Source: an uncultured delta proteobacterium (GTDB taxonomy: Bacteria > Desulfobacterota > Binatia > UBA9968). Taken from it: a DNA stretch of 64,000 nucleotides. This document shows positions 22,580-53,157 of the stretch, in pieces. A program made the translations under genes and the position numbers. The first letter of the stretch is position 1. Every line of letters begins with the position of its first letter. The DNA lies in assembly GCA_963737905.1 (NCBI GenBank), contig CAVTUQ010000028.1:128001-192000 (forward strand), in the 5' to 3' direction. Below the pieces are notes generated by a model. It saw nothing but the letters and a program-made list of their open reading frames with translations. It was not told where the DNA came from and made no database searches.

Positions 22580-22682
22580 ATGAGTTCGAACCTGGAACCT
22601 TGAACGGCAAATCCTAGGTCTTGAACGATTGAAACGACTGGAACTGCTGGAACGTTGGAACAAGTCCCCTCATAGTCGGATT

Positions 22683-22997: not shown

Positions 22998-22998
22998 C

Positions 22999-23328: not shown

Positions 23329-23406
23329 GACATATGGTAACATCTACGTTACTATTACTCAACATGAGTAACTTAGAGCGGTTAATCTTCTTGCTCCCAA
23401 ATGTTC

Positions 23407-23485
23407 CTCCGCCCCCGTGACGCGGGGGCGGACACAGGTGGGGGCTTGAACGATTTGAACGTTTTGAACGGCTGGAACTCTTCAT
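23407..23485 (+). repeat. 79-bp direct repeat, right copy
   Basis: Matches 22501-22579 with 6 substitutions. Confidence 0.9.
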
Positions 23486-33925: not shown

Positions 33926-34109
33926 TATCTCAAAAAAAAGCCCGGTCTGGGTATTCCCCAGCCGGGCGAAGAAGAAGACGACGGTTAAACTTTTGGTCTA
34001 CCGTCGCCTTGGAGCTGCCAAAAAATTATCCGCTAAGCGTAGTTTTGTTTTCGCCAAAGTCTCTACTTTAGGGACTTCAGGCATTCCTGTGAAGTCGGAC
34101 TCGGAGATT

Positions 34110-34213
34110 GCAGAGGACGCGGAGTAAAGAGCTCTTGATTAAAAAATTCTCCGAACTCTGTGAACTCGGCGCCTCTGCGGTGAATACTTCCTCACAGAAA
34201 ACCCGGAATAACC
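34110..34213 (+). repeat. Dispersed palindromic element of 9-nt-period GCAGAG/CTCTGC arms
   Basis: Homologous to 42928-43041 and 33877-33925. Confidence 0.75.
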
Positions 34214-35404
34214 TTATATCCCGGGCTGAGTACCGACGCTCCGCTGTGCCCGTCTTTCCCAGATTCCTCGGGGTAAAACCATGCCGAAACCCAGCAAGCG
34301 AGGCTGAGCCCATAGAATTCGGCAAAGCATATGCGCCGCTTGGTCCCGATTGTAGCGACCCAATAGAAGAATCGTTTTTTCATTGAGCAGAGCAAGCAGC
34401 CGGTCATAATCTCTACTACGAAACCGGTTTAAGACACACCTGAGGATCAAGTGCAGGCCGAGTTCGCGCCGGAGCGGTTTTAATTCCGTCAAATAGTCCC
34501 TGCGTCGCAGAATCGCATCGGCCGCCGCTTTCGCGCCCCGAAGTCCGGTCACAAGCCCGCCCACCGTTGTCACCTTGACCTGGGCGGCAGCATCGCCCAC
34601 GAGATAGACATCGGCGCCGGAAACATTCTTCCATTGGCGCGTGAAATGACTGTACGCGGGTACGCGAGCGGCCTGAATGTCTAGAATCTCTAAGCCTTGT
34701 CGAGCCAGAAACTTTTCGAGTTTAGTTCTACCGTGCTTGCCTTCCTCGGCGATAAAGCCCACCGCCGCCTGTTTTTGCGACTCCGGAATCAACCAGTAAA
34801 AGTACGGCGTATCTTCGGGCTCGAACCAAACTTGAGTCGTGTTCACACTGGCTCCGTCCGGCAGCTTGACGATCGCCTGAAGGATCGGCGTCGTCCCATG
34901 ACCGTCGCCGGTGGCCATTTTTGCCACGCGACTGAAACTCCCGTCGGCGCCGACCAGCGTTTTGGTTTTGAATTTCTCGACGCGATTTCGATACGTATCG
35001 TTAATGGTAACCGTGACCCCTTGTTCCGCGGGCTCGAGACTGAGAAACTTGCAGCCGCCCCGGATTTCAACCCCTTCATCGAGAGCTCTTTGGGCAAGTA
35101 AGCGAACCACCGTAGAACGCTCGACAACGAGATCCGGCATTTGCATCGGGATCGTCACCGACCGCCCCGGAGAAAACAGATCGATTTGTGTGATCTTATT
35201 GCAAACCGCGTCGCGCGGGAAAAAACCCAGAACGTCCGTCAAATGAGAGGTCGTGATCAACGTGCGTGATTCTGTATGCAGCACGTCGTTCGCATCAAAG
35301 AGCCGTACTCTCTTACCTTCGCGCGCCAGCAAGTAAGCTGCGAACAGACCCGCTGCCGAACCACCGACGATATCGACTTCCGCCACGTCCCCGATTGCTT
35401 TCAT
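34214..35404 (-). CDS. Geranylgeranyl reductase family FAD-dependent oxidoreductase
   Basis: IVGGSAAG, VGADG..S.VA, YFYWLIP, LVGDAAAQVK.TT.GG. Confidence 0.85.
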   Translation of the reverse strand: MKAIGDVAEVDIVGGSAAGLFAAYLLAREGKRVRLFDANDVLHTESRTLITTSHLTDVLGFFPRDAVCNKITQIDLFSPGRSVTIPMQMPDLVVERSTVVRLLAQRALDEGVEIRGGCKFLSLEPAEQGVTVTINDTYRNRVEKFKTKTLVGADGSFSRVAKMATGDGHGTTPILQAIVKLPDGASVNTTQVWFEPEDTPYFYWLIPESQKQAAVGFIAEEGKHGRTKLEKFLARQGLEILDIQAARVPAYSHFTRQWKNVSGADVYLVGDAAAQVKVTTVGGLVTGLRGAKAAADAILRRRDYLTELKPLRRELGLHLILRCVLNRFRSRDYDRLLALLNEKTILLLGRYNRDQAAHMLCRILWAQPRLLGFGMVLPRGIWERRAQRSVGTQPGI

Positions 35405-35433
35405 CTATCGATTTATTCGCCCTACCTGTATGA

Positions 35434-36005
35434 AAGCACGGAGCATGGAGCGCGGAGCACGGAGCCGGACGGGGAAATTTCGGATTTCGAATTTCGGATT
35501 GTTTTCCGACTTCTGCTCTCGTGCTCCGTGCGCTCTGCTAGTTGCTCTTTGCTCCTGCGCTTACCGCTTAGCTCCTAGCGCTTTGCTCTTGGCTCCCCGC
35601 TCCAAGCTCCCTGCTCCCAGCTGTTTTTCAAATCCGCAATCCGCAATCCGAAATTGTTCTTTGCTCTTACCGCTTCCTCTTGCTCCCTGCTCTGAACCAG
35701 AGGTCAGAGATCGAGACATGTTCAGCCGCCGAATCAGTAAATTCGCAGATGCAGAAACCCGATCTAAATTCGCAATGCAGAAACCCGAAAGGCTCAAGTC
35801 AGAGGCCAGCAATTTCGCAATCTCCGCAATCTATCTTACTTAGCTCTTTGCGCTTAGCTCTTAGTCTTAGTAAATCCGCAATTCGCAATTCGAAATCCGC
35901 AATTGTCTTTGCTCTTCCCCCTTACCCCTTACCTATTTGCTCTTAGCTCCCTGCTCTCTTGCTCCCTGCCCCCTGCTCCCCGCTCCAAGCTCCCTGCTCC
36001 TTGCT
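35434..36005. repeat. Mosaic of 7-nt tandem repeats (GGAGCAN/GCTCCNN, ATCCGMA/TTCGGAT, TCAGAGG, CCCTTAC)
   Basis: Blocks directly visible, in both orientations; no credible ORF. Confidence 0.9.
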
Positions 36006-36192
36006 GTTCACCAAGTTGCCGGCCAGTAGACAGCGTCTACAGCAAGCAAATACCAACGCTTTTCAGATAGTTAGATGTTTTTACCTCGCGAGCTGACACC
36101 TGCGGTGAAAGCACTCGGATCTTACCAGGGCACTTCATGGAAAAATATCTCTTGTATTCAACGGTTTAGAGTAAATCCAAAATAGGATCAAT

Positions 36193-36208
36193 TGGCATAA
36201 CGGTTGCT
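36193..36208 (+). promoter_or_regulatory. Sigma-54 promoter
   Basis: TGGCATAACGGTTGCT (GG-N10-GC), AT-rich upstream with IHF-like ATTCAACGGTTTA. Confidence 0.6.
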
Positions 36209-36248
36209 CCTGTGATACTACAGATTAACCCAGGAAAGAAGAAAAAAA

Positions 36249-36791
36249 ATGGCAAAAGTGATTCAGATGTTTCTGCAGTTACACGGGTGGAAGGGAAGCG
36301 CAGGACCGCAGAGACTCACGCGGCTGGTTTTCGCGCTTTTGGCTGGAGCAATCTTCACGTTGCTAGCCACGATCCCTGCCCTGGCGCAGACCCGTCAGGA
36401 GCAGGCCGAGCTAAAAGTGGTGGTGGGCGAAGTAGAGGTGCTCAGAAGAGGTACGACGACCTGGCAGGCGGCAAGCGTCGGGATGTTCCTTTCGGCCGGC
36501 GATGAGATCCGCGCCGCGCAAGATTCCGGGGCGGAGCTCGCTATGACTGACGGGAGCGTGGTCATGGTGTTCGCCCGGAGCCGGTTGCAGATCAAACAGC
36601 TCACGACCGACGCCGCGACCCGCACGTCATTTTTCCATCTGGTTGTCGGGGTAGTTCGGTACATTGTCGCGAAACCTGCAGTAACCTTGATCGGAACGCG
36701 TCAGAACGTTTTCTCCATCTCGACTCCGACGGCAGTCATGGCCGCAAGAGGCACAGACGGAATTATTTCCTACTACCCATCGCAGAACTAG
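36249..36791 (+). CDS. FecR-domain secreted protein (short, possibly truncated)
   Basis: Signal/TM, GEVEV, GD.I, AEL...DGS, TPTAVMAARGT, then stop. Confidence 0.75.
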   Translation: MAKVIQMFLQLHGWKGSAGPQRLTRLVFALLAGAIFTLLATIPALAQTRQEQAELKVVVGEVEVLRRGTTTWQAASVGMFLSAGDEIRAAQDSGAELAMTDGSVVMVFARSRLQIKQLTTDAATRTSFFHLVVGVVRYIVAKPAVTLIGTRQNVFSISTPTAVMAARGTDGIISYYPSQN

Positions 36792-36797
36792 CACTAT

Positions 36798-37075
36798 AGC
36801 AGGGAGCTTGGAGCGCGGAGCATGGAGCCGCTCTTTGCTCCCAGAGCCGGACAGCAAAAAGCGAAGCGCAAAGCGCCAAGAGTGAAGAGAAATCCGAAAT
36901 TCGCAATCCGCAATTACTTAGCTTCGCGCTCCATGCTCCCTGCTCTTAGCTCTTACCTCTCTGCCCTTTAGCGTTCCTGAAATTCGAAATCCGCAATCCG
37001 AAATTCGCAATTGCTTAGCTCCTTAGCTCTCTTGCTCCGCTGCTCCCTGCTTAACTTGCTCCCTGCTCTCCTGTC
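36798..37075. repeat. 7-nt repeat mosaic between convergent genes, extending into the sugar transferase 3' end
   Basis: gcagggagcttggagcgcggagcatggagc, aatccgaaattcgcaatccgcaat, gctccatgctccctgctc. Confidence 0.88.
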
Positions 37076-37648
37076 CCCATACACCCCCCGTCGCTGGAAC
37101 AACAGAACGAAAGCTTTCGCGAGAATGTAGGCGTCCAATCGGAGTGACCAGTTGTCAACGTACCAGACGTCCATCCGAACCCGCTCATTCCAGGGAACCA
37201 GGTTTCTGCCATGGATCCACGCCCATCCGGCCATCCCTGGCCTGAAATCAAATCGCCTGCTTTCTGACGGTCCGCAGTACGCGGCTTCGCTCGGTACCCA
37301 GGGCCGCGGCCCGACGATGCTCATGTCACCCTTGAGGACATTGAGGAGCTGCGGCAGCTCGTCCAGAGTCCATTTGCGCAACCAGCGCCCGACTCGCGTG
37401 ATGCGATCATCGTTCTCGCTTACAATCAGCCCATTCCCGATGGACTCAGCTCCGATCACCATGGTGCGGAATTTGTAGCAGCGAAACCTTCGCCGGTTCC
37501 TCCCCACACGATCCTGCACGAACAGAACTGGCCCGCCGTCATCCAACTTGATCGCCAGCGAGATCAAAGCGATGAGCGGAGAGAGCAGCAGCAGCGCGCT
37601 TGCTGCGACAACGATATCGAAGAGACGCTTCACGGCGAGGCTGACCAT
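36968..37648 (-). CDS. Bacterial sugar transferase (priming phosphoglycosyltransferase)
   Basis: KRLFD, YKFRTM, D.RITRVG, LDELPQL.NVL.GDMS.VGPRP; repeat-derived C-terminal tail. Confidence 0.93.
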   Translation of the reverse strand: MVSLAVKRLFDIVVAASALLLLSPLIALISLAIKLDDGGPVLFVQDRVGRNRRRFRCYKFRTMVIGAESIGNGLIVSENDDRITRVGRWLRKWTLDELPQLLNVLKGDMSIVGPRPWVPSEAAYCGPSESRRFDFRPGMAGWAWIHGRNLVPWNERVRMDVWYVDNWSLRLDAYILAKAFVLLFQRRGVYGDRRAGSKLSREQRSKRAKELSNCEFRIADFEFQER

Positions 37649-37650
37649 TG

Positions 37651-38373
37651 GAATTTCGGATTTCGGATTTCGGATTGCGGATTTATAACAGCAAACATAG
37701 CCTATGAAGAATTTTGGATTGCGGAGGAGGTATTATCTCGATGACAGAAAGATAAGTTTGTGAACTTGCAATTCAAAAATTTAAAATACTGACGAGCTGT
37801 TGCGGTCGAATCAGAAATTCGACATACGAAATCCGAAATTCGAAATTTCCTCAGACCGGCTTTGGCTTGTTCGCTCGCGTCGATCTTCCTATAGCGATGA
37901 AGATTGACAGGAGTTCACCAGCTTCCTTCAGTAAAGTCGTCCGGGCTTCAGTAATACCAAGGGAGACCTCCTCCATTACTTCTAGCCAGTACTGGGTTTC
38001 TGCAATTTCTTTTTCGACGATCCCGATCTTGTGGACAAAATCTGCGCGAGATTGCGCGCGATTAGCTTCGCGATAGTTCGCCCCGACTGATGTTCCTGAT
38101 TTCAGTAATTGATAGCCCAAAACGTCCGAAGTTTTCTTCTTCGGTAGCTCTTCCACGAAAAGGATAACGCTGACGGCGAACTTTTTCGTCCGTCGCTCTA
38201 GCTCATGCTTGTCCATGAAAGTACATTTCGGATTTCGGAATTGTTCTGAGTCGGGGTTAGGAAATCAAGAAGCGACCAGACAATCGAAAACATTTAGGAG
38301 CGTCTCAACACTTTGGTACCGGGCGAGTCCGGACAAATTCGAAATCCGCAATCCGAAATTCGAAATCCGCAAT
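37651..38373 (-). mobile_element. Heptamer-bracketed four-helix-bundle cassette, copy 1 (putative mobile cassette)
   Basis: Homologous over about 700 bp, including non-coding flanks, to 44910-45607. Confidence 0.6.
37851..38216 (-). CDS. Four helix bundle protein (TIGR02436 / 23S rRNA IVP / Avd-like)
   Basis: RTKKFA, QLLKSGTSVGANYREA.RAQS..DF..KI.I.EKE..ET.YWLE. Confidence 0.92.
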   Translation of the reverse strand: MDKHELERRTKKFAVSVILFVEELPKKKTSDVLGYQLLKSGTSVGANYREANRAQSRADFVHKIGIVEKEIAETQYWLEVMEEVSLGITEARTTLLKEAGELLSIFIAIGRSTRANKPKPV

Positions 38374-38417
38374 CGCCTTTGCTCTTAGCTTTCTTGCTCC
38401 CTGCTCCCAGCTCATCC

Positions 38418-38446
38418 TTTACACAAATCCTACCGCTTGTTATAAA
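38418..38446 (+). promoter_or_regulatory. Sigma-70-like promoter for HTH gene
   Basis: TTTACA-17 bp-TATAAA just before GTG at 38455. Confidence 0.5.
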
Positions 38447-38454
38447 TACTCGGA

Positions 38455-38757
38455 GTGGCTAAAAACCCAAAAAAAGCGGCATCTTACTCCGCGGTTTACA
38501 CGGTGGAGGAGTTCGCCAAAATTTTTAAGCTTTCACCGCAATCGGTACGAACCCTCATCCGAACGGGCGAGATTCCAGCCATTCGTATTGGGAAACAGCA
38601 CCGTATCCCTCAGGCGGTTGTCGACCACTATTTCGCTCAAGCGACCTCACCTCGGGAACGTGGGTTCGGCATGTGGAAAAAGAACCGCGTCCCAAGTCTT
38701 ACCTACGTCAACAAGCTGCGAGATCAAGAACAAAAAAAGCACAGAGCATGGAGCTAG
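38455..38757 (+). CDS. Excisionase-type HTH DNA-binding protein, antitoxin-like
   Basis: YTVEEFA, LIRTGEIPAIRIGKQHRI; C-terminal FGMWK...YVNKLR. Confidence 0.75.
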   Translation: MAKNPKKAASYSAVYTVEEFAKIFKLSPQSVRTLIRTGEIPAIRIGKQHRIPQAVVDHYFAQATSPRERGFGMWKKNRVPSLTYVNKLRDQEQKKHRAWS

Positions 38758-39114
38758 GAGCGTGGAGCCGCCCTTAGCTCTTCATCCTTCGCACGTACCG
38801 CTTCGCGCTTATCTCTTAGTCCACAGTAAATCCGCAATTCGCAATTCGAAATCCGCAATTGGCTTCGCTCCCTGCTGTCGCTACCAGAGATCAGAGGTCG
38901 GAAGTCAGAGGTCAGAAAATTCGCAATCCGCAATCCGAAATTCGCAATTCCCTTTGCTCTTCCCCCTCACCCCTTTGCTCTTAGCAGTCTTTTAAATTCG
39001 CAATCCGCAATTCGAAATTCGAAATCGCCTTTGCCCTTAGCTCTCTTGCTCCGCGCTCCAAGCTCCCCGCTCCATGCTCTTACCCCTTACCCCTTTGCTC
39101 TTTGCCCCTTTCCC
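38738..39114. repeat. 7-nt repeat mosaic between convergent genes
   Basis: GGAGC, ATCCGCA/ATTCGAA, TCAGAGG, GCTCTTT, CCCTTAC blocks. Confidence 0.88.
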
Positions 39115-40344
39115 TCACCCCCCTGCCACCCTCCTCAACAGTTCGTCATACTGCGCAACCGCAACGTGCTTGGAGTGGTGCGCTTCCGCGTATCGGCGGC
39201 CTTGCTGCCCCATCTGCTCGCGCAGCGCGGCATCTTCATACAGCGTCACAATGGATTCGGCCAGGCGCTCAGCATCGCCGGGGCTAATGCAAAGACCACA
39301 GCCCGCGCTCGCCACAGCGCGCGCGACTTCGCTGTCGTGTTCCGCCGCTGCCAGGAGCGGCCGGCCGCTTGCCATGATTTCGTAGATCTTGGATGAAAAC
39401 GAATCGTTGGCCGCACCGTTTCGATATAAAGAGACTTGCACGTCCGAGGAGGCCCTCATCCACGGCAGGTTTTCGCGCGGCTGAAACGGCAGGAAGCGCA
39501 CATTGGTCAGCCTCAGCTTCGCAGCCTTTTCTTCCAGCTCGGCTTTCGCCACCCCATTGCCGACTATTAGAAAAAATATATCGCGCTGCTCCCTGAGGAG
39601 CAGGGCCGCATCCAGCAGGGTGTCGAGATCGTACACGTAGCCGAGGCTCCCCGCATAGCTGACGACAAATTTGTCAGACAAACCCTGTTCGCGGCTGAAA
39701 TCGTTTTCCCTCGGCAGCGGGCGAATAAATTCCGTATCGACGAAATTCGGGATCACCGAAACTTTTTGCTTCGGCACCTTCTTGGCCAACAAGCTCTCCC
39801 GCATGGCTGAAGTGATGACCGTCACATGCGCCGCTTTGCGGTACATGAAATTTTCCATCGACCTCAGGGCGGCGATGGCGTAAGGATTGTGAAGTTGGCC
39901 GGCACGAATCGGCACATCAGGGTAGAGGTCCTGAACGTTGTAGATGAACGGGGCTGATTTCAAATTTTCGAGCACCCACGCCGACAAGCCGCTGAAAAAA
40001 GAGCCGTTGGGACAGAGCACGACATCCCAGGCCCGCCGCGACAGCGCTCCGGTCACAGTTGCCAATGCGTTGTAGGAGACATAACTCATGAGCCGGTTAG
40101 CCATAGTTTTTTTTCCGGGAGCGTAGACATAAAGCCGAGTAACATCCATCTCCCCGTAACGCTCGTGCTCGACCAGCTTGCCGCGGTACTCATCCCACAC
40201 GCGAAAATTTTCATAATGCGGAAACGCCGTGATCACCGAGACCTCGTGGCCTCGTGCCGCCAACCCCTCGCAAAGCTGCGCCATCAGCAATCCGGTCGGA
40301 TTCACATCGGGCGGAAATTGGATGATAGGGAGGAGAATGCGCAT
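39115..40344 (-). CDS. GT4 glycosyltransferase (WbuB/WcaI-like)
   Basis: GHEVSVITAFPHY, YNVQDLYPD, VIPNFVD, SKIYEIMASGRP. Confidence 0.9.
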   Translation of the reverse strand: MRILLPIIQFPPDVNPTGLLMAQLCEGLAARGHEVSVITAFPHYENFRVWDEYRGKLVEHERYGEMDVTRLYVYAPGKKTMANRLMSYVSYNALATVTGALSRRAWDVVLCPNGSFFSGLSAWVLENLKSAPFIYNVQDLYPDVPIRAGQLHNPYAIAALRSMENFMYRKAAHVTVITSAMRESLLAKKVPKQKVSVIPNFVDTEFIRPLPRENDFSREQGLSDKFVVSYAGSLGYVYDLDTLLDAALLLREQRDIFFLIVGNGVAKAELEEKAAKLRLTNVRFLPFQPRENLPWMRASSDVQVSLYRNGAANDSFSSKIYEIMASGRPLLAAAEHDSEVARAVASAGCGLCISPGDAERLAESIVTLYEDAALREQMGQQGRRYAEAHHSKHVAVAQYDELLRRVAGG

Positions 40345-40350
40345 GGCTGG

Positions 40351-41670
<1,320 letters not shown>

Positions 41671-41673
41671 TAA

Positions 41674-42681
41674 TTATCGATAGTTAGTCATATGCGCTTC
41701 GCGCCGAGCTAGCTCCAGGTCGGCTTCGACCATGATCCGGACTAACTCTTCGAATTGCACTCTTGGTTCCCATTTTAATTTCCGTTTCGCCTTGGAGAAA
41801 TCGCCGACCAAGGTATCGACCTCGGCGGGACGTAGGTAGCGGCGGTCGATTTCGACATGATCGTGCCAATTCAGATCGAGCAAGCCGAACGCCTTATCAA
41901 CAAATTCCTTCACACTGTGACTCTCGCCGGTAGCGATAACGTAGTCGTCGGGCTTTTGCTGCCGCAGCATGAGCCACATAGCTTGAATGTAGTCGGGCGC
42001 ATAACCCCAGTCTCGTTTGGCCTCGAGATTACCCAGATAGAGTTTCTCTTGTAAACCGAGCTTGATTCGCGTCGCCGCCCGCGTGATCTTGCGACTAACG
42101 AAGGTCTCGCCTCGCCTCGGACTTTCATGATTAAACAGAATGCCGTTGCAAGCAAAAAGACCGTAGGCTTCGCGGTAATTGCGCACGATATAAAATCCGT
42201 AGGCCTTGGCGCAGCCGTAAGGACTGCGCGGATAAAAGGGCGTGGTTTCCTTTTGCGGAACTTCTTGAGCTAAGCCGAACAGTTCGCTCGACGACGCCTG
42301 ATAAAATTTCGGTTTGATCCCGGTTTCGCGTATCGCCTCCAACAGCCTCACCGTGCCGAGGCCGGTGATTTCGCCGGTATATTCCGGCACGTCAAAACTC
42401 ACCATGACATGGCTCTGCGCGCCCAGGTTATAGATCTCATCGGGTCGGATGTCGCGCAGTATGCGATTTAGAGAGCTCGCATCGTTCAGGTCGCCATACA
42501 CCAGCTTGAGACGCGGATTAGGCTCATGAGGATCCTGGTAAATATGATCGATGCGGCCGGTGTTGAATGAGCTGGATCGCCGTATGATGCCGTAAACGTC
42601 ATACCCTTTCTTCAGCAGGAACTCGGCCAAATACGAGCCGTCCTGCCCAGTGATACCGGTTATGAGAGCGGTGTTGGACAT
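41674..42681 (-). CDS. gmd: GDP-mannose 4,6-dehydratase
   Basis: [45 protein letters not shown]. Confidence 0.97.
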
Positions 42682-42689
42682 TTTAACTA

Positions 42690-42840
42690 ATGGCGGATGG
42701 CATATGGCTTATAGCGGATAGTTTATAGCAAATGGCTTATAGCGTATGGCGGATAGCTTATGGCGGCTGGTGACGTATAGATTATAGCAAATAGCAAATG
42801 GCTGATGGCGTATGGAATATAGCTTATAGGATGGCTGGCT
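42690..42840. repeat. 7-nt tandem repeat array (ATRGCNN) upstream of gmd
   Basis: atggcgg atggcat atggctt atagcgg atagttt atagcaa atggctt atagcgt ... Confidence 0.88.
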
Positions 42841-42927
42841 TAACGCGGGCTGAGGGTATTTCTGAATGCATTTATGTTGTACCCATTGGTACATGGACTA
42901 CTCTGTGGTGAAGAACGATTCGGATAT

Positions 42928-43041
42928 ATCACCGCGGAGGCGCGGAGGGCACAGAGTAAAATTTCTCAATAAAAAATACTCCCAACTCTGTGTGCTCTGC
43001 GTCTGTGGTGAATCTTCTTTCACAGTAAACCCAGAAGAGCC
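42928..43041 (+). repeat. Dispersed palindromic CACCGC...GGTG element
   Basis: caccgcggaggcgcggagggcacagag ... ctctgtgtgctctgcgtctgtggtg; homologous to 34110-34213. Confidence 0.75.
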
Positions 43042-43082
43042 TTCTTTTCCGGGTACCTGTTACTATTTGCGATCGGCATGTG

Positions 43083-44905
43083 CTATACGCTAGTTTTCTC
43101 TACAAGAAAACTCCCGATGGCCAGCACATCCATCTTCGTTCGTTTGAAACAGTCAATCGCCTCTTCCGGCGTGCAAACGACCGGCTCGTTCTCATTGAAA
43201 GAGGTGTTAAGCAGGACCGGAACGCCGGTAAGATTTTCGAATTCTTTGATCAGTTTCCAGTAGCGCGGATTCCCATCACGGTCGACGGTTTGAAGCCTGC
43301 CCGTGCCGTCGACGTGAGTCGGTGCCGGAATCACGGAACGCTTCTCTTGCTTAACCTTATAGGCCATGAGCATGAACGGCGACGGATGGGTCTCTTCGAA
43401 ATAATCTCCGACGCGCTCAAGCAAGATCGACGGTGCGAAAGGACGAAACGGTTCGCGGTGTTTTATTCGGCTATTTAGCATGTCTTTCATCTCGGCCCGG
43501 CGCGGATCGACCACAATGCTCCGATTTCCCAAAGCACGAGGGCCAAATTCCATTCGTCCCTGAAACCACCCACGACTTTCCCCGTCGGCGATCTTCCGCG
43601 CCGTGGCCTTGACCAACTCTTCTTCACTCAATTCCGCTATCCGAAATCCGAAATCCGAAATGGTACGGATGACCGGTGACCAATGACCGACGACTTCTGG
43701 CTCCCTGCTTCCGGCTCCCTGCTCCGTGCTCCCCGCTCCCATCCCCTCACGCCTCACCCCTAACGCCTCACGAATTTGGCTATCGCCAAATTCCGGCCCC
43801 CAATACGTATGCTTCATCTCGAACGAGCGCGGTTGTCCCAGAATTTGATTCCACACATAAAAAGCTCCGCCGATAGCGAGCCCTGCGTCGCCGGCCGCGG
43901 ACTGGATATAGACTTTCTCAAACGGTGTCTTGGCAAGAATTTTCCCGTTGGCGACGCAGTTGTAAGCCACACCGCCGGCGAGGCAGAGTTTTTTTATGCC
44001 GTAGAGTTTGTAAAGTCTGTCGAGCATGGCGAGCATGGCATCTTCGAGCCGGACCTGCAGCGACGCGGCGATATTCTGATGCCGCTTTTCGACAGGCGCT
44101 CCTGCCGCCCTTTCGGGTCCTAGTTGTCTCGTGAGGAAATCTCCATAGAGCTTGCCGATCTTCGGCTCACCGTCCCGCCAGGTCATTTCCGGAGCCGATT
44201 TGTGATGGATGAAGTGATCCAACCCGAGTGAAAATCCGACATTGCCATTGATTTTAACGATCTCGTCGAAGCGGTCGCGATATTCCGGCTGCCCATAGGA
44301 GGCCAGACCCATGACCTTGTACTCATCGCCGTAGTTCCAAAAACCTAAATATTGAGTCAGCGCTGTGTAGTAGATGCCGAGTGAATGCGGGAATGCAATC
44401 GACCCTCGATCCTCTGATTTCCCTGCCCCAAACCCCACATCGTGCTGGCAAAGTCGCCCAATCCGTCGATCGACAACAAAGCCGCTTCCTCGAAAGGCGA
44501 AACAAAAAACGAACTCGCCAGATGGGCTTTGTGATGCTCCACCCGATGGATTTGCGCCTTGATCTCCTCACGCCTCACTCCTAACGCCTCACCCAATTCT
44601 TCCTGAATGCCAAAAAACTTCGCCTGCGCGCCAAGACGATTGAGCCCCAAGCGCGGTATTTTTACCGCATAAAGCGCCTTCCTCCAAATTCGCGCTCGCG
44701 GATCGCGCGCCACCGCCACGTGTTCAATGTCCTTAGCTTCCAAACCCGCTATCTTCAGGCAGGCTCGAATAGCGTTGGCCGGGAAACCCGCCGCGTGCTT
44801 TATGCGGATAAAGCGCTCCTCTTCCGCCGCCGCGACGAGCTGCCCGTCTATGATCAGTGCTGCGCTGGCGTCACCGTGGTAAGCGTTGATGCCGAGAATA
44901 ACCAT
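43083..44905 (-). CDS. Carbamoyltransferase (NodU/CmcH family), frameshift near 44400-44430, repeat insertions
   Basis: ILGINAYHGDASA, EHHKAH, EYKVMGLA, AGGVAYNC, EFGPRALGNRS, NTSFN. Confidence 0.9.
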
Positions 44906-44909
44906 GAGT

Positions 44910-45607
44910 AATTTCGAAATGCGGATTTAGAATGCGGATTTATAAAGCAAACATACCTATGAATAATTTGGATGCGGAGGAGGTATCGGCTCTCGAGGAC
45001 AGATTGAAAAATCTAAAATACTACAAGCTGTTGCGGTCGAATCAGAAATTCGACATACGAAATCCGAAATTCGAAATTGCCCTCAGACGCCTTCGGCTTA
45101 TTCGCTCGCGTCGATCTTCCTATAGCGATGAAGATTGACAGGAGTTCACCAGCTTCCTTCAGTAAAGTCGTCCGGGCTTCAGTAATACCAAGGGAGACCT
45201 CCTCCATTACTTCTAGCGAGTACTGGGTTTCTGCAATTTCCTTTTCGACGATCCCGATCTTGTGAACAAAATCCGCGCGAAATTGCGCGCGATTAGCTTC
45301 GCGATAGTTCGCCCCGACTGATGTTCCTGATTTCAGTAATTGATAGCACAAAACGTACGAAGTTTTCTTCTTCGGTAGCTCTTCCACGAAAAGGATAACG
45401 CTGACGGCGAACTTTTTCGTCCGTCGCTCAAGCTCATGCTTGTCCATGAAAGTACATTTCGGATTTCGGAATTGTTCTGAGTCGGGGTTAGGAAATCGAG
45501 AAGCGACCAGAAAATCGAAAACATTTAGGAGCATCCTCAACACTTTGTAAACAAGTAACCGGGCGAGTCCGGACAAATTCGAAATCCGCAATCCGAAATC
45601 CGCAATT
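44910..45607 (-). mobile_element. Heptamer-bracketed four-helix-bundle cassette, copy 2
   Basis: Homologous to 37651-38373. Confidence 0.6.
45083..45446 (-). CDS. Four helix bundle protein, copy 2 (1-nt deletion just before the stop homologous to copy 1)
   Basis: MDKHELERRTKKF...; differs from copy 1 by D>Y, G>C, S>F, W>S and synonymous changes. Confidence 0.85.
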
Positions 45608-45683
45608 GAGTTTGCTCTTTGCTCTCTCTTGCTCCAAGCTCCCAGCTCCTTGCTCGTTGCTTTATTTCCCTTACCCCTAACGC

Positions 45684-48600
45684 CTAACCCTCCAAATACA
45701 GCGCTTTAAAATCGTGTCTGGGGATTGACATGCGTATTTTTCCGGCTGCAATACTGATATCTTGTTTCGACTCTGCATCCGTAATCGTGGTCTTTGCGGG
45801 ATTTAGACCCAACCCAGAAATATCTACTTTAACATCTCCCGTATAATCTTCGCCTATATTCGTAAGAAAAATCAGGGCTGAGTTTGTACGCGTATAATAG
45901 CTGACTTTAACACTCGAATTATCAGGTTGAACGGCGGTCTGTTCCCAAAACCCCCTAAAATTCACATCTGCGGCGGTAATGCCGAAATTTTTTTTTATCG
46001 TCGCAAACCATGGCGCAGGGTCAATAGGTAAAACGTCATGAATTGCCAATACGCCATACATTGCGCGAAGCGCTTTTGTATACTCGGCCCGCAGATTGTA
46101 GAATTTAATATAATTCAAAAAGACCGGGGTAAGCCCAAATTTTTGGCTTCGAGATAACCCCCGAAGCCACTCTGAACCAAGCTTCCCATTGCCCCAAAGA
46201 TCGATCCAGTCAGGATCGGTGGGTTTGTGAACATGAAAGCCTCACCGTCGCTTGCGACATCAGCAAAAGCAAAAGCATGGGGATACATCTTTGCAGTTGT
46301 ATGAAGCCAAATGACCGGCCGCTTGCCATTGTCCAACATCACCTGTCGGAGACGTTTCAATTTTTCCCTCATGCCAAGCAGCATGTACCCAGCTCCATGG
46401 GTTCCATCCTCTTTTATGTAACCGCCGCTCAACAGCGAGGCGCTCGTAAACGGTTCAGGCTCGTCAATGTACAGGCCGTCGTAGGTATTGGTCGAGAGCG
46501 CGTTGTTTATATGGTATAGCCAATAGTCGGCATCGCCTTTAGTGGGCGCAGAGATCCAGCCGTCACTAGCTGTTTCCGTTTTGATTGGATCCAGATCGAC
46601 CTAGGTATGACCGCCCGCCCCAATTGTCACATGGAAATTCGTAAAAGGCACAACCTTCCGCTTCTGATCTCTTAAACCCTGGATTGCCGTTTTGTACAGA
46701 TTATTATCACGAGGCACTAATGAAAAAATTGGAAAGTTTGCATTGGATCTTCCTCCAGATGAATGACCCCGCCAATCCCAATATACGTCGAAATCATTAT
46801 TCGGGAATACAGAAGTGCCGCCGGCTGCCCCGAACCGCCCGCCTCGCCAATCTGCCGGCAGTGGCTTTACAGGGGTCGCCTCATAACCCAAAACTTATTT
46901 CTATGGGTTCGTTCAATACAAAATCCTTGTTGACAAGAATATTTTGCAGCCGCACGTTCCCGTTGCCATCGCGAATCATCTCCTGCATGGGAAGCGATTC
47001 GTCCACACGCCAGCCGCTGGGATTTTCCGCAAACCATTCAAGCCCGCGATCGTCGTCAGAGAAAAGCACAACCGGCAAGAATTTGGACTTCTGTGGTCGT
47101 TGCTTAAGATTAGTATGAAACGTTCCAGGCGTGCTGGGCACGGCGGATTTATATGGATACCACCAATACGGTTGATCGGTTGTGGTGTGCATAAAAAGTG
47201 CCCGGCTTGAAGGCAGCACTGTCTGTAAACGCACGCTTTTAATAGTTACCGGACCAGCTGTGGAGAAAGTTTTAGCGCGATAAGCATCATGCCGTCATAC
47301 TCTAAGCTTCCGCTTACCCTGGCGGTTATTCCCTGACCCTCCGCAGTACCCTCCCAGTTGACTATATCTGGTTGGATCGACGTAATTGACAGTGATGATG
47401 GCTTCAGTTCGAACGTTCCGCTGCCTTTATCAATTTCCAACGCAACCGGGCTTGCCAAGAGGTGCTGACCCTGCGAGGTGATTTGGCTCGGCAAACCAAA
47501 ACCACCGGTAAGATCATACTCTCTTCCCCATACGCTGAGTTTTAAACCATTCGCCGCTATGGCGGTCCATGGGGGTTGTATCTTCGTGCTTACACCTAAC
47601 GAATTTCCAAGCCATGAGGTTTTTGGCAATACAAAGGATGAAGAATTCTTAAACGCAAGCACCGAGTTTCTACGATCAAGAAGTTTAACCGTGGCATAAT
47701 AAGAACCTGGAGTCATATTGCCAATGGAGATGAGCGACTCGCCAAATCCGCGACGAAGTTGCGTGATATCTCCGGACTTAATCAACTTACCATCACTATA
47801 AACATCCACTGTGTATTTGACTCCGGCCACTTCAAAATCATTTCCAGAATCTGCAGCGATACTTAACTTTCCTATCCCTGGGCCCCATTGGGCGGTAACA
47901 TCGATTCCGTGTGGATCAATGGGCGTGAGAGGGTTTGATGTCGTTGCCGTAAATGCTGCGGCAACTTCAGTCGGGGTGAATGCAAAATTGTAGCTGCCGA
48001 ATTCATCAATCGTAACGTCTTGAAAACCACCAAACGAAGGACCAATACTGAAAGTGGGCAAAGCCACAGAAGGCATCGGACTGACGAAAATTTTGTCTTG
48101 TTTCAGGGCTCCATCAAGGTAGACTTTGTGATTGATTCCCTGCCAGGTCCAGACCACGTGGTGCCACTCTCCTGGTTTAAACGAAAATCCGCCAGTGCCT
48201 ATCTTCTCTTCAATTGAAGGAACTAGTTTCATGTTGAAGATAATCTCGCCGGGAAGCGTAACCGTGGAGTTTTTTTGGTCGGGCCTATCCGGTAAAAAAT
48301 TGGCCTCTACGTGCGGTGGACCTGGATATATGTAGAAAAGCTGCGGCAGTCCAACGGTGCTCAGATTATTGAGTTTAATCCAGAATGCTATGCTCCCCCG
48401 GCGAGTATCGAGACGTTCTATATCGCTCCTAAGCTGGCTACCCGTTTTATCTTTTCGAATGAATATGCCCTCGCCAATTTTCCCGTTTGGGTCAAACGTA
48501 ACCCGTTGAACCTGTAGTTTGGAGTCACTTGACACCCGGCCATCGTTAAAACCCGCAAAAAGCAATGCACGTGGTGTCGGATGTGCAGCACAAGCTATAT

Positions 48601-48685
48601 TTCCATACACCGCAAATATCGAAGTTATCGAGATCAAGGCAAATAGTAATATTGTCGCACATGCTCTGAGTCTATTGCTCGCCAT
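45684..48685 (-). CDS. Large secreted protein with LamG-like domain and putative glycoside-hydrolase region, split by several frameshifts
   Basis: Consecutive minus-strand ORFs; GSIAFW, WHHVVWTW, LYLDG-like KVYLDG, IDEF; LEYDG, GLEWFAE; lower GC. Confidence 0.6.
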
Positions 48686-48759
48686 GATCGATACCGAGCT
48701 CTTTACGTCAGCGGCCAGAATCAGGCAGCATGGAGCCACGCTTTGCTCTTGGCACTTAG

Positions 48760-49620
48760 CTACCCCCGCTCCGTGCTATCCTTGTTCCCGACTTCGACTT
48801 CTGATGTTCGCCTTTCGCTCCTTGCTCCGTGCTCCATGCTCCTCGCTTCCTTGTCTGCAAAGTCTTCCTCAATCAGATAGAGCGCCAGCAGGATCTCCGC
48901 CAACATCCTTTGGAACGCGTAGTAAACACCAGCCCAGCCGTCGCGTATCGCGCCTTTGACGAATAGGCAGTAAAAGAAAATTACAAACGGAAAAAGAACT
49001 CGTGTTTTTCTCAGGCGATCGGGGAAACTCGGATCTACTTTTTTGGAACCACGTAGATGCACGATCTCCAGTCGCATGTAACGATCCTGCGATTTCAACC
49101 AGTGCGTCAATGGCTTTCGGTCATCATGCAGAATCGGCGAACGCAGTTCTCTCACTTCACCGTCAATCGCAACTCGTTGTGTGTGACCGTCCTGCTGGTA
49201 AATGGCATGCTCGCGGCGATAAAGCACGGTGACCGGTGGATATGCCGACCCACGCAGCGGCTTGCCGTGCACACAATACAAGAATCTAGCTTGATAGCCG
49301 TTAATTCCCGTTGGTGGTTTCAGGGCTTTCAACTCCTCGACCAAATCGGGGGTAAGGACATAGTCCGCGTCGATAGCGAGCACCCACTCGGAAGTAATGC
49401 CCGTTTCTTCAAAGCAAAATTCCATTGATTTTGATGGCGATCGAATCGCCGCTGAAACACGCGTACTTGCGGGATCTGCGAAGCAATCACTAATGTCGCA
49501 TCGTCGCTGAAGCTGTCGAGCAGCACGATATCACGGGCCCAACTCAGCGCGTGGAGACTGCGCCGGATGTTCGGCACTTCGTTGTAGGTCAGGACGATTG
49601 GAGTGATCTGATCGAGCAGC
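48760..49620 (-). CDS. GT2 glycosyltransferase (frameshifted)
   Basis: ITPIVLTYNE.PNI, LDSFSDD, WVLAIDAD, DGHTQR; repeat-derived tail. Confidence 0.8.
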
Positions 49621-49669
49621 GTTTCACCAAGAATTTTTACTGTATGAGACGGCCGGCGTTATTTTTACT

Positions 49670-50842: not shown

Positions 50843-50850
50843 GACAATAA

Positions 50851-51002
50851 CCAGAGGTCAGATGATCAGAGATCGAGCAGTCAGAGCCGGGAGCGTATGA
50901 GCAAAGAGCTAAGAGCAAAGCGCAAAGCGCTTTGCTCTTTTGCTCCAAGCTCCCTCCTCCTTGCCATTTACGCCTTACACTTCACTCCTTACGCGCTAAC
51001 CG

Positions 51003-51008
<6 letters not shown>
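50851..51008. repeat. 7-nt repeat mosaic at asnB/GT junction
   Basis: TCAGAGG, GAGCAAA/TTTGCTC inverted pair, CCTTACG blocks. Confidence 0.8.

Positions 51009-53157
<2,149 letters not shown>

What the first reader, a model, noticed from the sequence alone, without database searches (positions are those of the whole stretch)
37646..37853. Repeat hairpin brings a stop codon within 1 nt of the next start codon
Seen on the minus-strand mRNA: UGA(37853-37851) is followed directly by GGAAAUUUCGAAUUUCGGAUUUCG..., which pairs (30 of 35 positions plus one bulge, manual alignment) with ...CCGAAAUCCGAAAUUCC followed by A-AUG(37648), looping out about 130 nt. No SD precedes the AUG. In copy 2 the base differs but still pairs: UGAG..AAUUUCG with CGAAAUU-ACUCA-UG (44903-45085). 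Inference: a 200-nt insert is made translationally neutral by structural stop-start juxtaposition (termination-reinitiation), or is excised like an IVS.
Basis: partly seen in the sequence, partly recalled or inferred. Interest (0 to 1): 0.78.

Follow-up and report, generated by a model that had tools for sequence, protein, structure and literature searches.

The report
Repeat hairpin inside a mobile cassette
The hairpin is real, but it is only one possible pairing among 7-base repeat arrays that frame an inserted small-gene cassette of the kind first seen inside ribosomal RNA, not a purpose-built device for restarting translation.

Summary
Copy 1 is as described. On the minus strand UGA (37853-37851) is followed at once by a 24-nt ATTTCGR heptamer array. 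It pairs (22 bp, one mismatch, one bulge) with an inverted array that ends 1 nt before AUG 37648 (z about -4).

The reading does not hold up.
- The upstream ORF is a PF05635/TIGR02436 "23S rRNA intervening-sequence" four-helix-bundle gene.
- The 200 nt are the tail of a ~730-nt cassette: array A1, 93 nt, B1, ORF, A2, 142 nt, B2. It is duplicated at 89% identity 7.2 kb away.
- In copy 2 the UGA is out of frame, and the local fold is no better than shuffles.
- When the whole cassette is folded, B2 pairs with the outer arm A1, not A2, in both copies.
- A same-family genome has the two host genes 2 nt apart, so the cassette and its neighbouring arrays are an insertion.
- Relatives of the gene in many phyla are often bracketed by inverted heptamer arrays whose unit differs by lineage.

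Best reading: a compound, IVS-like, heptamer-armed cassette. Excision by RNase III is inferred, not shown.

This scan has noted the same cassette type on other DNA (36 notes). My four literature searches found no paper describing it.

The parts
38335..38374 (-). A1: outer 5' arm of cassette copy 1, an array of ATTTCGR/ATTGCGG heptamers (about 5.7 units)
   Evidence: TRF. It pairs with B2 in whole-cassette folds.
38242..38334 (-). x: 93-nt leader between A1 and B1. It is conserved between the two copies, and no other copy was found.
   Evidence: Alignment. Genome and relatives searches. No IVP remnant by blastx.
38225..38241 (-). B1: short inverted array (ATTCCGAAATCCGAAAT) 8 nt before the IVP start codon
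37851..38216 (-). IVP gene copy 1, 121 aa, a four-helix-bundle protein (PF05635 / TIGR02436)
   Evidence: PF05635 61.7 bits against a cut-off of 33.8. TIGR02436 81.3 bits. PDB 2rld_A E 1.2e-18.
37827..37850 (-).
It includes a small local hairpin (GTCGAAT..ATTCGAC). It has a 23-nt deletion in copy 2, and no homologue was found elsewhere.
   Evidence: Rfam found nothing.
37650..37684 (-). B2: outer 3' arm, 35 nt, ending 1 nt before the AUG of the sugar transferase. It is the partner of A1 in whole-cassette folds and of A2 only in the isolated 200 nt.
36968..37648 (-). Downstream host gene: a small polyprenyl-phosphate sugar transferase (Bac_transf)
   Evidence: PF02397 215.4 bits. 71% identical to the G016 orthologue.
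38375..39114 (-). Further array-rich spacer between the GT4 stop (39117-39115) and A1. It is part of the 1466 nt that are absent from the G016 junction.
   Evidence: (I3a, I3b)
45575..45608 (-). A1': outer 5' arm of cassette copy 2
45013..45447 (-). IVP gene copy 2, read as 144 aa. A 1-nt indel near the 3' end puts the TGA at 45085-45083 out of frame. It has 5 substitutions (by my count from the alignment), including W to S in the conserved QYW motif, so it is probably decaying.
   Evidence: TIGR02436 75.2 bits.
44906..44941 (-). B2': degenerate outer 3' arm of copy 2. It ends directly before the ATG (44905-44903) of the carbamoyltransferase gene.

Best explanation
WHAT IT IS. The 208 nt are the 3' part of a compound 'heptamer-armed IVP cassette'. 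This is an inserted, duplicated ~730-nt module whose cargo is a four-helix-bundle gene of the 23S-rRNA-intervening-sequence protein family. It is framed by inverted arrays of the 7-nt unit ATTTCGR.

The cassette holds four such arrays, in the order A1, x, B1, ORF, A2, y, B2. The thermodynamically preferred stem is A1:B2. That stem loops out the whole cassette and ends 1 nt before the start codon of the next host gene.

SHOWN:
- the architecture and the duplication;
- the family of the ORF;
- the predicted preference for A1:B2;
- the insertion relative to a relative's compact operon;
- frequent bracketing of this gene family by inverted heptamer arrays in many phyla.

INFERRED:
- By analogy with ORF-bearing 23S rRNA intervening sequences, the terminal stem acts in RNA, most likely as an RNase III substrate. 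Cleavage would release the IVP message and leave the downstream gene with a short leader lacking an SD.
- The arrays also provide the homology through which the cassette was copied to a second junction.

I put the identification at about 0.9, and the RNA-processing step at about 0.35.
For: ORF FAMILY. PF05635 at 61.7 and 56.4 bits. TIGR02436 at 81.3 and 75.2 bits. PDB 2rld_A E 1.2e-18.

DUPLICATION. There are two full-length places in the genome, at 100% and 89% identity. The other 35 matches are array-only, at most 66 nt. Similarity between the copies runs from the upstream arrays to the ATG of two unrelated genes.

STEM CHOICE.
- Expected base pairs A1:B2 are 21.9 (copy 1, 821 nt) and 22.2 (copy 2).
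- With the whole 1532-nt spacer they are 29.4, and 33 of 35 B2 bases pair with 38342-38377.
- A2:B2 is 0.0 in all three folds.
- The global MFE is 14.4 and 11.4 kcal/mol better than the best fold limited to spans of 250 nt or less, which is the only fold in which A2:B2 forms.
- Arm duplexes: A1:B2 -31.0 and -29.3; A2:B2 -25.6 and -17.0.

INSERTION. In G016 (same family, another genus) the order is GT4 (67% identity), 2 nt, sugar transferase (71%), 4-nt overlap, FAD oxidoreductase (57%). Here 1466 nt and 1563 nt fill those two junctions.

FAMILY PATTERN.
- 68 loci were tested, out of the 80 kept. 44 have a helix of at least 14 bp and 28 a helix of at least 20 bp between the ORF's flanks. For the 20-bp threshold the controls give 6 of 68 (reversed downstream flank) and 7 of 110 (shifted windows).
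- TRF finds arrays on both sides in 22 of 67 loci. The units are reverse-complementary in 17 of those 22, against 127 of 462 cross-locus pairs. There are 8 distinct units.
- In the own genome the other PF05635 paralogues carry paralogue-specific units in their arms (by eye).
- The sense-strand duplex is more stable than the antisense duplex in 30 of 44 loci.

SUPPORT FOR THE ANALOGY. An RNase III gene is present, at 122.7 bits. In the Coxiella IVS a 28-bp terminal stem is cut by RNase III, and heptameric repeats (GACAGAT) lie upstream of the S23p ORF (PMC4990558, passages read).
Against: - No RNA data exist. Cleavage, and even co-transcription of the cluster, are not shown.
- Folds are equilibrium predictions. 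During transcription A2 and B2 are close together and could pair first.
- The architecture departs from the usual one. In relatives the arms sit next to the ORF (median 19 and 13.5 nt). Here the arrays next to the ORF (B1, A2) have the opposite polarity, and the cognate arms lie 118 and 166 nt from the ORF. I cannot explain how this arose.
- Swapping arms between the two copies gives no clean covariation. A1(copy 2) pairs better with B2(copy 1), -37.2, than with its own B2, -29.7.
- The family pattern is not universal. 24 of 68 loci lack a 14-bp helix, and the controls reach 14 bp in 23 of 68 and 31 of 110.
- A cognate against non-cognate matrix of the 11 own cassettes was only weakly diagonal: 6 of 11 against 25 of 110 reach 16 bp.
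- The excess of G-U pairs over A-C mismatches could come from transcription-linked C-to-T bias rather than from selection.
- The genome is a MAG (87% complete, 6.7% contamination), so the copy-2 indel could be an assembly error.
Confidence: 0.6

Rival explanations
1. The A2:B2 hairpin places the IVP stop codon next to the sugar-transferase start codon, so that terminating ribosomes reinitiate (or the stem is unmasked by them). This would make the 200-nt spacer translationally neutral.
For: - Copy 1 geometry is exact. The stem begins directly after UGA and ends 1 nt before AUG, with 22 bp and z -3.7 to -4.2.
- No SD precedes the AUG.
- A2:B2 is the pairing obtained when only local spans (250 nt or less) are allowed: 21 pairs in copy 1 and 16 in copy 2. 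It could therefore form first during transcription.
- At cassette level, arms in relatives lie close to the flanking stop and start codons. Median gaps are 12 and 18 nt in 33 and 37 of 44 loci.
Against: - In copy 2 the UGA is out of frame and the ORF ends 70 nt further on, inside the loop.
- The copy-2 fold is no better than shuffles: z -0.17, with 86 of 200 shuffles as good.
- A2:B2 has 0.0 expected pairs once A1 is present.
- All 8 cluster genes examined lack an SD, and about 59% of well-defined starts genome-wide do too. SD-independent initiation is therefore ordinary here.
- The loop has a 23-nt deletion in copy 2 and no homologue elsewhere.
Confidence: 0.08
2. A2-y-B2 is a separate gene-less heptamer hairpin module, an orphan of the cassette family. 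It happens to lie beside the IVP gene and acts locally, for example as a REP-like stabiliser of the 3' end of the IVP message or as a structure that masks the next start codon.
For: - The genome holds 83 gene-less inverted array pairs (loop median 38 nt, quartiles 16-127) against 5 with a PF05635 match.
- A2-y-B2 (loop 124 nt between the TRF-called arrays, helix 20 bp) is listed among them.
- Both A1-x-B1 and A2-y-B2 have the usual polarity, with the G-rich arm on the 5' side. That polarity is seen in 75 of 88 pairs and in 41 of 44 loci.
- Another spacer of the cluster (GMD to epimerase) forms a comparable array hairpin, z -4.45.
- Earlier scan notes describe gene-less copies of the cassette (e1-5110005, e1-2716337).
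Against: - No remnant of an IVP ORF is detectable in x or y. The blastx hits are translated arrays only, best E 0.002.
- x, ORF and y were copied together as one unit.
- B2 matches A1 better than A2 in both copies.
- No terminator-like or other known RNA motif was found.
Confidence: 0.2
3. The arrays matter only at the DNA level. They are terminal inverted repeats or recombination substrates through which the cassette moves and the arrays expand. Every RNA hairpin, the reader's included, is then incidental.
For: - The cassette is copied to two junctions 7.2 kb apart, with its borders inside arrays.
- There is an empty site in G016.
- Arrays are also found inside coding sequence, as an in-frame insertion of about 40 aa in the carbamoyltransferase, shared with the G016 orthologue.
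- Period-7 arrays are densest in this locus. The four fullest 10-kb bins of the genome all lie in C28:160-210 kb.
- A hairpin of inverted arrays reads the same on both strands, so its polarity needs no transcript.
Against: - Sense-strand duplexes are more stable than antisense ones in 30 of 44 loci, Wilcoxon p 0.003.
- There are 80 G-U pairs against 12 A-C mismatches.
- 28 of 44 cassettes lie between same-strand ORFs.
- No transposase or target-site duplication was seen at the cassette.
Confidence: 0.2

Closest known systems
ORF-bearing intervening sequences (IVS) of 23S rRNA, for example the Coxiella burnetii helix-45 IVS (PMC4990558; abstract and passages read)
   Same: - A PF05635/S23p four-helix-bundle ORF lies in the loop of a stem formed by terminal inverted repeats. 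The stem is 28 bp in Coxiella and 23-33 predicted pairs here.
- Direct heptameric repeats lie upstream of the ORF.
- There is a poor SD, or none, before the ORF.
- The element is regarded as selfish or mobile.
   Different: - Here the element lies between protein-coding genes of a polysaccharide cluster, not in rRNA.
- The arms are multi-unit heptamer arrays, and there are four of them.
- RNase III excision is shown for Coxiella but only inferred here.
Intergenic heptamer direct repeats: TAACTGA arrays of Beggiatoaceae, cyanobacteria and Bacteroidetes (PMC4679880, passages read); GGGACCG-type four-heptamer elements of Geobacter metallireducens (PMC2700814, passages read); cyanobacterial STRR (recalled, no call)
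   Same: - Tandem 7-nt units fill intergenic spacers and lie close to start codons that lack an SD.
- Several heptamer families are mixed in one spacer.
- They are occasionally found inside genes.
   Different: Those papers describe direct arrays. In the passages I read they do not link the arrays to inverted pairs or to the IVP gene family. Here the arrays come as inverted pairs that frame a gene.
REP/BIME-type extragenic palindromes within operons (recalled, no call)
   Same: They are repeated hairpin-forming elements between co-transcribed genes, present in many gene-less copies per genome.
   Different: REPs have a fixed palindromic consensus of about 35 nt, no 7-nt periodicity and no associated four-helix-bundle gene.
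Translational coupling, termination-reinitiation and structure-assisted ribosome shunting (general knowledge, recalled)
   Same: In copy 1 a stop codon and the next start codon lie at the base of one helix.
   Different: The geometry is not conserved in copy 2, and the helix is not the preferred one. No dependence of downstream translation on upstream termination has been tested.
Avd accessory proteins of diversity-generating retroelements (PMC10053308 mentions PF05635; search listing only)
   Same: They have a related small four-helix-bundle fold and family.
   Different: No reverse transcriptase was found among the 32 ORFs of the window scanned against Pfam. Template and variable repeats were not searched for specifically.

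Membership tests
PF05635 / TIGR02436 four-helix-bundle '23S rRNA IVS protein' | The profile HMM score is above the curated cut-off. | tested here: met
   PF05635 at 61.7 and 56.4 bits, cut-off 33.8. TIGR02436 at 81.3 and 75.2 bits, cut-off 24.
PF05635 / TIGR02436 four-helix-bundle '23S rRNA IVS protein' | It is related to a solved four-helix-bundle structure. | tested here: met
   2rld_A, E 1.2e-18, residues 7-116 of 121. That this entry is a four-helix bundle is recalled; the output names it only 'Uncharacterized protein'.
rRNA intervening sequence (IVS) | It is inserted in a 23S rRNA helix (25 or 45). | tested here: not met
   It is flanked by a glycosyltransferase and a sugar-transferase gene. 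No rRNA match was found in 34000-54000.
rRNA intervening sequence (IVS) | Terminal inverted repeats form a stem of 20 bp or more that encloses the ORF. | tested here: met
   A1:B2 has 23 and 24 pairs in the MFE. Expected pairs are 21.9, 22.2 and 29.4.
rRNA intervening sequence (IVS) | It is excised from the transcript by RNase III. | not testable with these tools
   Only the presence of an RNase III gene could be shown (C30:23710-24093, 122.7 bits). No usable RNA run was found.
Heptamer-armed IVP cassette (the class noted earlier in this scan; not found in print) | The ORF is bracketed by inverted arrays of one 7-nt unit. | tested here: met
   A1/B2 and B1/A2 are arrays of ATTTCGR and its complement. 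For the family as a whole: 17 of 22 loci with arrays on both sides have reverse-complementary units.
Heptamer-armed IVP cassette (the class noted earlier in this scan; not found in print) | It is a discrete insertion relative to related genomes (an empty site exists). | tested here: met
   In G016:C90 the GT4 stop is 2 nt from the sugar-transferase ATG. Here 1466 nt lie between them. This rests on one relative only.
Heptamer-armed IVP cassette (the class noted earlier in this scan; not found in print) | The arms directly adjoin the ORF (medians of 19 and 13.5 nt in relatives). | tested here: not met
   The cognate arms lie 118 nt (A1) and 166 nt (B2) from the ORF. The adjacent arrays B1 and A2 have the reverse polarity. 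It is therefore a compound variant.
Termination-reinitiation / stop-start coupling element | Stop and start are juxtaposed, and this is conserved among copies. | tested here: not met
   Copy 1 has it. In copy 2 the TGA is out of frame and the ORF ends at 45015-45013.
Termination-reinitiation / stop-start coupling element | Downstream translation depends on upstream termination and on the stem. | not testable with these tools
   This needs reporter assays.
Intrinsic terminator | A G+C-rich stem is followed by a U tract. | tested here: not met
   No terminator-like site lies at 37646-37853. There are 3 sites in 36900-39200 against 2.6 expected from shuffles.
MITE / TIR transposon | There is a target-site duplication and a transposase (in cis or in trans). 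| tested here: inconclusive
   No duplication is evident at the borders of the two copies (by eye). No transposase domain was found in the ORFs scanned. The borders lie inside arrays, so they cannot be placed to the base.

The most novel reading that the evidence does not exclude
Heptamer-armed IVP cassettes may be 'intervening sequences of operons'. In this reading the terminal stem lets a 0.4-1.5 kb insertion sit in a tightly coupled gene junction without breaking expression. It could do so in two ways. RNase III could excise the cassette RNA. Or ribosomes finishing the upstream gene could open or bypass the stem base and start on the next gene.

The four-helix-bundle protein would read the 7-nt register of its own arms, for processing or for copying. 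Decayed cassettes would seed the genome's heptamer arrays, even inside coding sequence.
Probability: 0.15. Interest if true: 0.85.

Novelty: new variant of a known kind. Interest (0 to 1): 0.6.

Why it matters
Two long-standing unknowns meet here. One is the function of the '23S rRNA intervening-sequence' four-helix-bundle protein family. The other is the origin of the heptamer tandem repeats that fill intergenic spacers in several bacterial phyla.

This window shows the two linked as one insertable unit outside rRNA. An empty site in a relative supports the insertion. The cassette has been copied to a second junction in the same locus. Arrays have also spread into spacers, and even into a coding sequence, in one polysaccharide cluster.

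If the terminal stem is processed or bypassed in RNA, this would be a new way for bacteria to tolerate selfish insertions inside operons.

For the finding as written, the value is corrective. The neat stop-start geometry is a property of one copy and of one sub-optimal pairing.

Tried and rejected
- REMNANT OF AN IVP GENE IN THE LOOPS. I ran blastx of x, y and the two long spacers against 80+ IVP proteins. It gave only hits to translated arrays, best E 0.001-0.002. No remnant was shown.
- KNOWN RNA FAMILIES. An Rfam scan of 34000-54000 at E up to 1 gave two chance-level hits elsewhere.
- PROMOTERS AND TERMINATORS IN 36900-39200. There were 2 and 3 sites, against 1.4 and 2.6 expected. Nothing usable.
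- OTHER COPIES OF THE LOOP y. None in the own genome. None in 40 relatives, where only arrays matched, plus the ORF in G015 and G020. That tally, 8 of 41 genomes, includes the unpublished G012, which gave array-only matches.
- DUPLEX ENERGY AS A TEST OF FLANK PAIRING. It was uninformative. Same-locus median was -46.4, against -32.1 for cross-locus pairs and -45.8 for shifted windows. I therefore switched to helix length.
- COGNATE AGAINST NON-COGNATE MATRIX OF THE 11 OWN CASSETTES. It was weak: 6 of 11 against 25 of 110 reach 16 bp.
- ARM SWAP BETWEEN THE TWO COPIES. There was no clean covariation.
- SHORTEST STRUCTURAL PATH FROM THE GT4 STOP TO THE SUGAR-TRANSFERASE START. It was 9, against 15.2 +/- 6.2 in 25 shuffles. 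Not significant.
- PUBLIC RUNS. 20 of the 22 listed runs held any part, all at shares of 0.18 or less, and all are kept as contigs. I laid 4 of them at 85% likeness.
  - The joints have sides of 33 nt or less and lie in arrays, so they probably come from other organisms.
  - One 731-nt bog-metagenome contig covers 37656-38236 with 39 differences and 2 gaps. ORF, A2, y and B2 are therefore contiguous elsewhere.
  - One 552-nt soil contig matches only 37855-38236.
  - One 162-nt contig of an RNA library covers 37993-38154. This does not show transcription.
  - No conclusion on excision or expression can be drawn.
- OTHER SPACERS OF THE CLUSTER AS HAIRPINS. Only GMD-epimerase (z -4.45) and part of the GT4-IVP spacer (z -2.85) stand out. 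Epimerase-GT4 (-0.52), carbamoyltransferase-GMD (-1.09) and GH-IVP2 (-0.41) do not. 'Every spacer is a stop-start hairpin' is therefore rejected.
- NOT RUN. I did not run structure prediction, complex prediction or the large protein searches, because the family assignment was already clear.
Full report
1. THE OBSERVATION

On the minus strand the ORF 37851-38216 ends with TGA (37853-37851). It is followed at once by GGAAATTTCGAATTTCGGATTTCG (37850-37827). The complement-type array AAATCCGCAATCCGAAATCCGAAATCCGAAATTCC occupies 37684-37650. One A follows, then the ATG of ORF 36968-37648.

RNAfold of 37640-37860 pairs the two arrays with 22 bp, one mismatch and one bulge.
- MFE is -54.0 kcal/mol against -39.9 +/- 3.8 for 200 dinucleotide shuffles. 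That gives z -3.71, and no shuffle is as good.
- My own run on the 208 nt gave z -4.18.

The geometry claimed for copy 1 is therefore real. The count '30 of 35' is not reproduced, because the 5' arm has only 24 nt.

Copy 2 differs. A 1-nt indel puts the TGA at 45085-45083 out of frame, and the ORF runs on to TAG 45015-45013. The fold of 44895-45092 is no better than shuffles: z -0.17, with 86 of 200 shuffles as good. A second run gave z -1.79.

2. WHAT THE PIECES ARE

The upstream ORF is a four-helix-bundle protein of the '23S rRNA intervening-sequence protein' family.
- PF05635: 61.7 bits against a cut-off of 33.8.
- TIGR02436: 81.3 bits.
- PDB 2rld_A: E 1.2e-18.

The downstream ORF is a small polyprenyl-phosphate sugar transferase (PF02397, 215 bits). 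The surroundings are a polysaccharide cluster on the minus strand. It holds GT4 glycosyltransferases, GDP-mannose dehydratase, an epimerase, a carbamoyltransferase and an AsnB-like gene.

The 200 nt are not a unit of their own. An alignment of 37560-38480 with 44820-45720 is 89% identical from the arrays upstream of the IVP gene down to the ATG of two unrelated genes, the sugar transferase and the carbamoyltransferase. In the whole genome the 755-nt query has just these two full-length places. The other 35 matches are heptamer arrays of at most 66 nt.

The cassette reads, in mRNA sense:
- A1 (38374-38335, ATTTCGR/ATTGCGG units);
- x (93 nt);
- B1 (38241-38225, the inverted unit);
- the ORF;
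- A2 (37850-37827);
- y (142 nt);
- B2 (37684-37650).

3. WHICH STEM

I folded the whole cassette of copy 1 (821 nt) and summed base-pair probabilities between arrays. A1:B2 has 21.9 expected pairs. A2:B2, A1:B1 and B1:A2 each have 0.0. Copy 2 gives 22.2 for A1:B2 and 0.0 for A2:B2.

With the whole spacer from the GT4 stop codon to 60 nt inside the sugar-transferase gene (1532 nt), 33 of the 35 B2 bases pair with 38342-38377. A1:B2 then has 29.4 expected pairs and A2:B2 has 0.0. The three further A-type arrays upstream do not compete.

If pairs are limited to spans of 250 nt or less, A2:B2 does form (21 and 16 pairs). That fold is 14.4 and 11.4 kcal/mol worse than the global one.

Arm-only duplexes:
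- A1:B2: -31.0 (copy 1) and -29.3 (copy 2).
- A2:B2: -25.6 (copy 1) and -17.0 (copy 2).

It could still form transiently during transcription, which these equilibrium folds cannot judge.

4. INSERTION

In G016 (same family, another genus) I found the orthologous genes.
- GT4 is 67% identical over 408 aa.
- The sugar transferase is 71% identical over 188 aa.
- The FAD oxidoreductase is 57% identical over 377 aa.

There the GT4 stop codon is 2 nt from the sugar-transferase ATG, and the sugar-transferase and FAD genes overlap by 4 nt. Here the same two junctions hold 1466 nt (37649-39114) and 1563 nt (35405-36967) of array-rich DNA. The IVP cassette lies in the first.

Insertion here is more parsimonious than two precise deletions there, but this rests on one relative. 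The two same-genus genomes gave no orthologous locus. They are fragmented, with 880 and 420 contigs.

5. THE WIDER PATTERN, TESTED HERE

A scan of one genome per species found 533 relatives of the protein among 600 candidate stretches. The best 80 were kept, from many phyla, at 67% identity at most.

TRF shows period-7 arrays right before and after many of these ORFs, with units that differ by lineage. Examples are ATTTCGG/AAATCCG, AAAGCGG/TTTCCGC, AAAGTAG/TTTCTAC and GAATTGC/CAATTCG.

Helix between the 100-nt upstream flank and the downstream flank, in the 68 loci with usable flanks:
- Real flanks: 44 of 68 reach 14 bp; 28 of 68 reach 20 bp.
- Control, reversed downstream flank: 23 of 68 reach 14 bp; 6 of 68 reach 20 bp.
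- Control, shifted windows: 31 of 110 reach 14 bp; 7 of 110 reach 20 bp.

With TRF-called arrays on both sides (22 of 67 loci), the units are reverse-complementary in 17 of 22, against 127 of 462 cross-locus pairs. Eight distinct units are represented.

Further features:
- The 5' arm is richer in G than C in 41 of 44 loci.
- The sense-strand duplex is more stable than the antisense one in 30 of 44 loci (Wilcoxon p 0.003). Stems contain 80 G-U pairs against 12 A-C mismatches. This is a hint of selection on the RNA, with two caveats: the loci are related, and transcription-linked C-to-T bias could give the same result.
- In 28 of 44 loci same-strand ORFs lie on both sides. The median is 12 nt from the upstream stop to the 5' arm and 18 nt from the 3' arm to the next start (ORFs of 60 codons or more served as a proxy for genes).

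The pattern is frequent but not universal.

6. THE OWN GENOME

There are 11 PF05635 matches, one of them with an internal TGA. By eye, most carry their own heptamer unit in inverted arrays, and several sit a few nt from the flanking stop and start codons. A crude cognate against non-cognate matrix was only weakly diagonal: 6 of 11 against 25 of 110 reach 16 bp.

The genome has 492 period-7 arrays of 3 or more units, with 91 canonical units. The four fullest 10-kb bins all lie in C28:160-210 kb, which is this locus.

After merging, 594 arrays remain. They give 88 inverted pairs within 900 nt. Five of these enclose a PF05635 match and 83 are gene-less, with a median loop of 38 nt. A2-y-B2 is one of those 83.

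Absence of an SD is ordinary here.
- 630 of 1537 well-defined starts (41%) have an SD core, against 11% of random 16-mers.
- 0 of 8 starts in this part of the cluster have one.

An RNase III gene is present.

7. COMPARISON WITH WHAT IS KNOWN

The closest described system is the ORF-bearing IVS of 23S rRNA. In Coxiella burnetii a 428-nt element carries an S23p ORF. A 28-bp stem of terminal inverted repeats is cut by RNase III. Three or four direct heptameric repeats (GACAGAT) lie upstream of the ORF, with the 5' cut at the first repeat (PMC4990558; abstract and passages read).

The cassette here shares the ORF family, the enclosing stem and the heptamers. It lies in an operon junction, not in rRNA, so it is not an rRNA IVS.

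Intergenic heptamer direct repeats near SD-less start codons are described for Beggiatoaceae, cyanobacteria and Bacteroidetes (PMC4679880, passages) and for Geobacter (PMC2700814, passages). The passages I read make no link to inverted pairs or to this gene family.

Four full-text searches listed no paper describing four-helix-bundle IVP genes bracketed by inverted heptamer arrays in operons. Supplementary tables were closed, and subscription journals are not covered.

This scan has noted the same cassette type before on other DNA: 36 notes in at least 35 genomes. I reached the pattern independently before reading those notes. Their 'gene-less orphan' reading gave me rival 2.

8. MECHANISM AND ODDS

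The identification is well supported, at about 0.9. It covers a compound heptamer-armed IVP cassette that is inserted and duplicated, with A1:B2 as the cognate stem.

How the cassette works is inferred. I favour an RNA-level role of the terminal stem as an RNase III substrate, by analogy with the IVS (about 0.35). The arrays would also serve as homology for copying.

Rivals:
- a local, REP-like or start-masking role of A2-y-B2 as an orphan module (0.2);
- a purely DNA-level role (0.2);

What remains unexplained is the compound layout. The arrays next to the ORF (B1, A2) have the reverse polarity to that seen in relatives. The segments x and y have no detectable relatives or coding remnant.

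9. VERDICT

What is there is a new variant of a known kind.

Noticed in passing
window 43640-43770 (minus strand, inside carbamoyltransferase 43083-44905): An in-frame insertion of about 40 aa is made of heptamer arrays, in the order GTGAGGC-type, GGGAGCN-type, GGTCAYY-type and ATTTCGG-type. It lies between the two Pfam domains. The G016 orthologue (73% identity) has it at the same place, and a more distant G015 homologue lacks it. A second short array is read in frame at 44564-44592.
   Followed up: partly
window 44400-44440: The carbamoyltransferase gene is split into two overlapping frames (44357-44905 and 43083-44438). This is a frameshift, or an assembly error, near GGATCGAGGGTCGATTGC.
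   Followed up: partly
window 51003-53157: An AsnB-like amidotransferase appears as three separate ORF pieces: the GATase domain at 52621-53157, Asn_synthase profile positions 11-146 at 51717-52154, and positions 235-352 at 51003-51584. Heptamer arrays lie in the gaps.
   Followed up: no
window 45684-48739: Two ORFs match distant parts of the GH123_N profile, positions 324-453 and 857-940. They look like fragments of one large gene. The upstream arrays of cassette copy 2 start directly after the stop codon at 45684.
   Followed up: no
window 35405-36967: A 1563-nt array-rich spacer lies between the sugar-transferase and FAD-oxidoreductase genes, where G016 has a 4-nt overlap. It holds a FecR-domain ORF on the opposite strand (36249-36791, E 1.2e-9).
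   Followed up: partly
window 22501-23485: A Gp49/HigB-like ORF (22999-23343, minus strand) and a 122-aa partner ORF (22683-23051) are bracketed by 79-nt direct repeats (22501-22579 and 23407-23485, 92% identical). The repeats contain CGTTCAA heptamer arrays and a G+C-rich hairpin. This may be a toxin-antitoxin pair inserted with duplication of an array-bearing site.
   Followed up: partly
window 41471-41676: The GMD-epimerase spacer forms a long hairpin of inverted GGAGCNN/NNGCTCC arrays, z -4.45. It begins 7 nt after the stop codon but ends 45 nt before the next ATG. It is a gene-less module of another heptamer family.
   Followed up: partly
G000 C3:96226-96543, C28:194713-195030; L042: Three IVP cassettes, one of them in another phylum, appear by eye to sit between the C-terminus of an ABC-2-type permease (..FADVV*) and the N-terminus of its ATPase (M..I.V.NL.K.Y). 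This suggests a recurrent junction.
   Followed up: no
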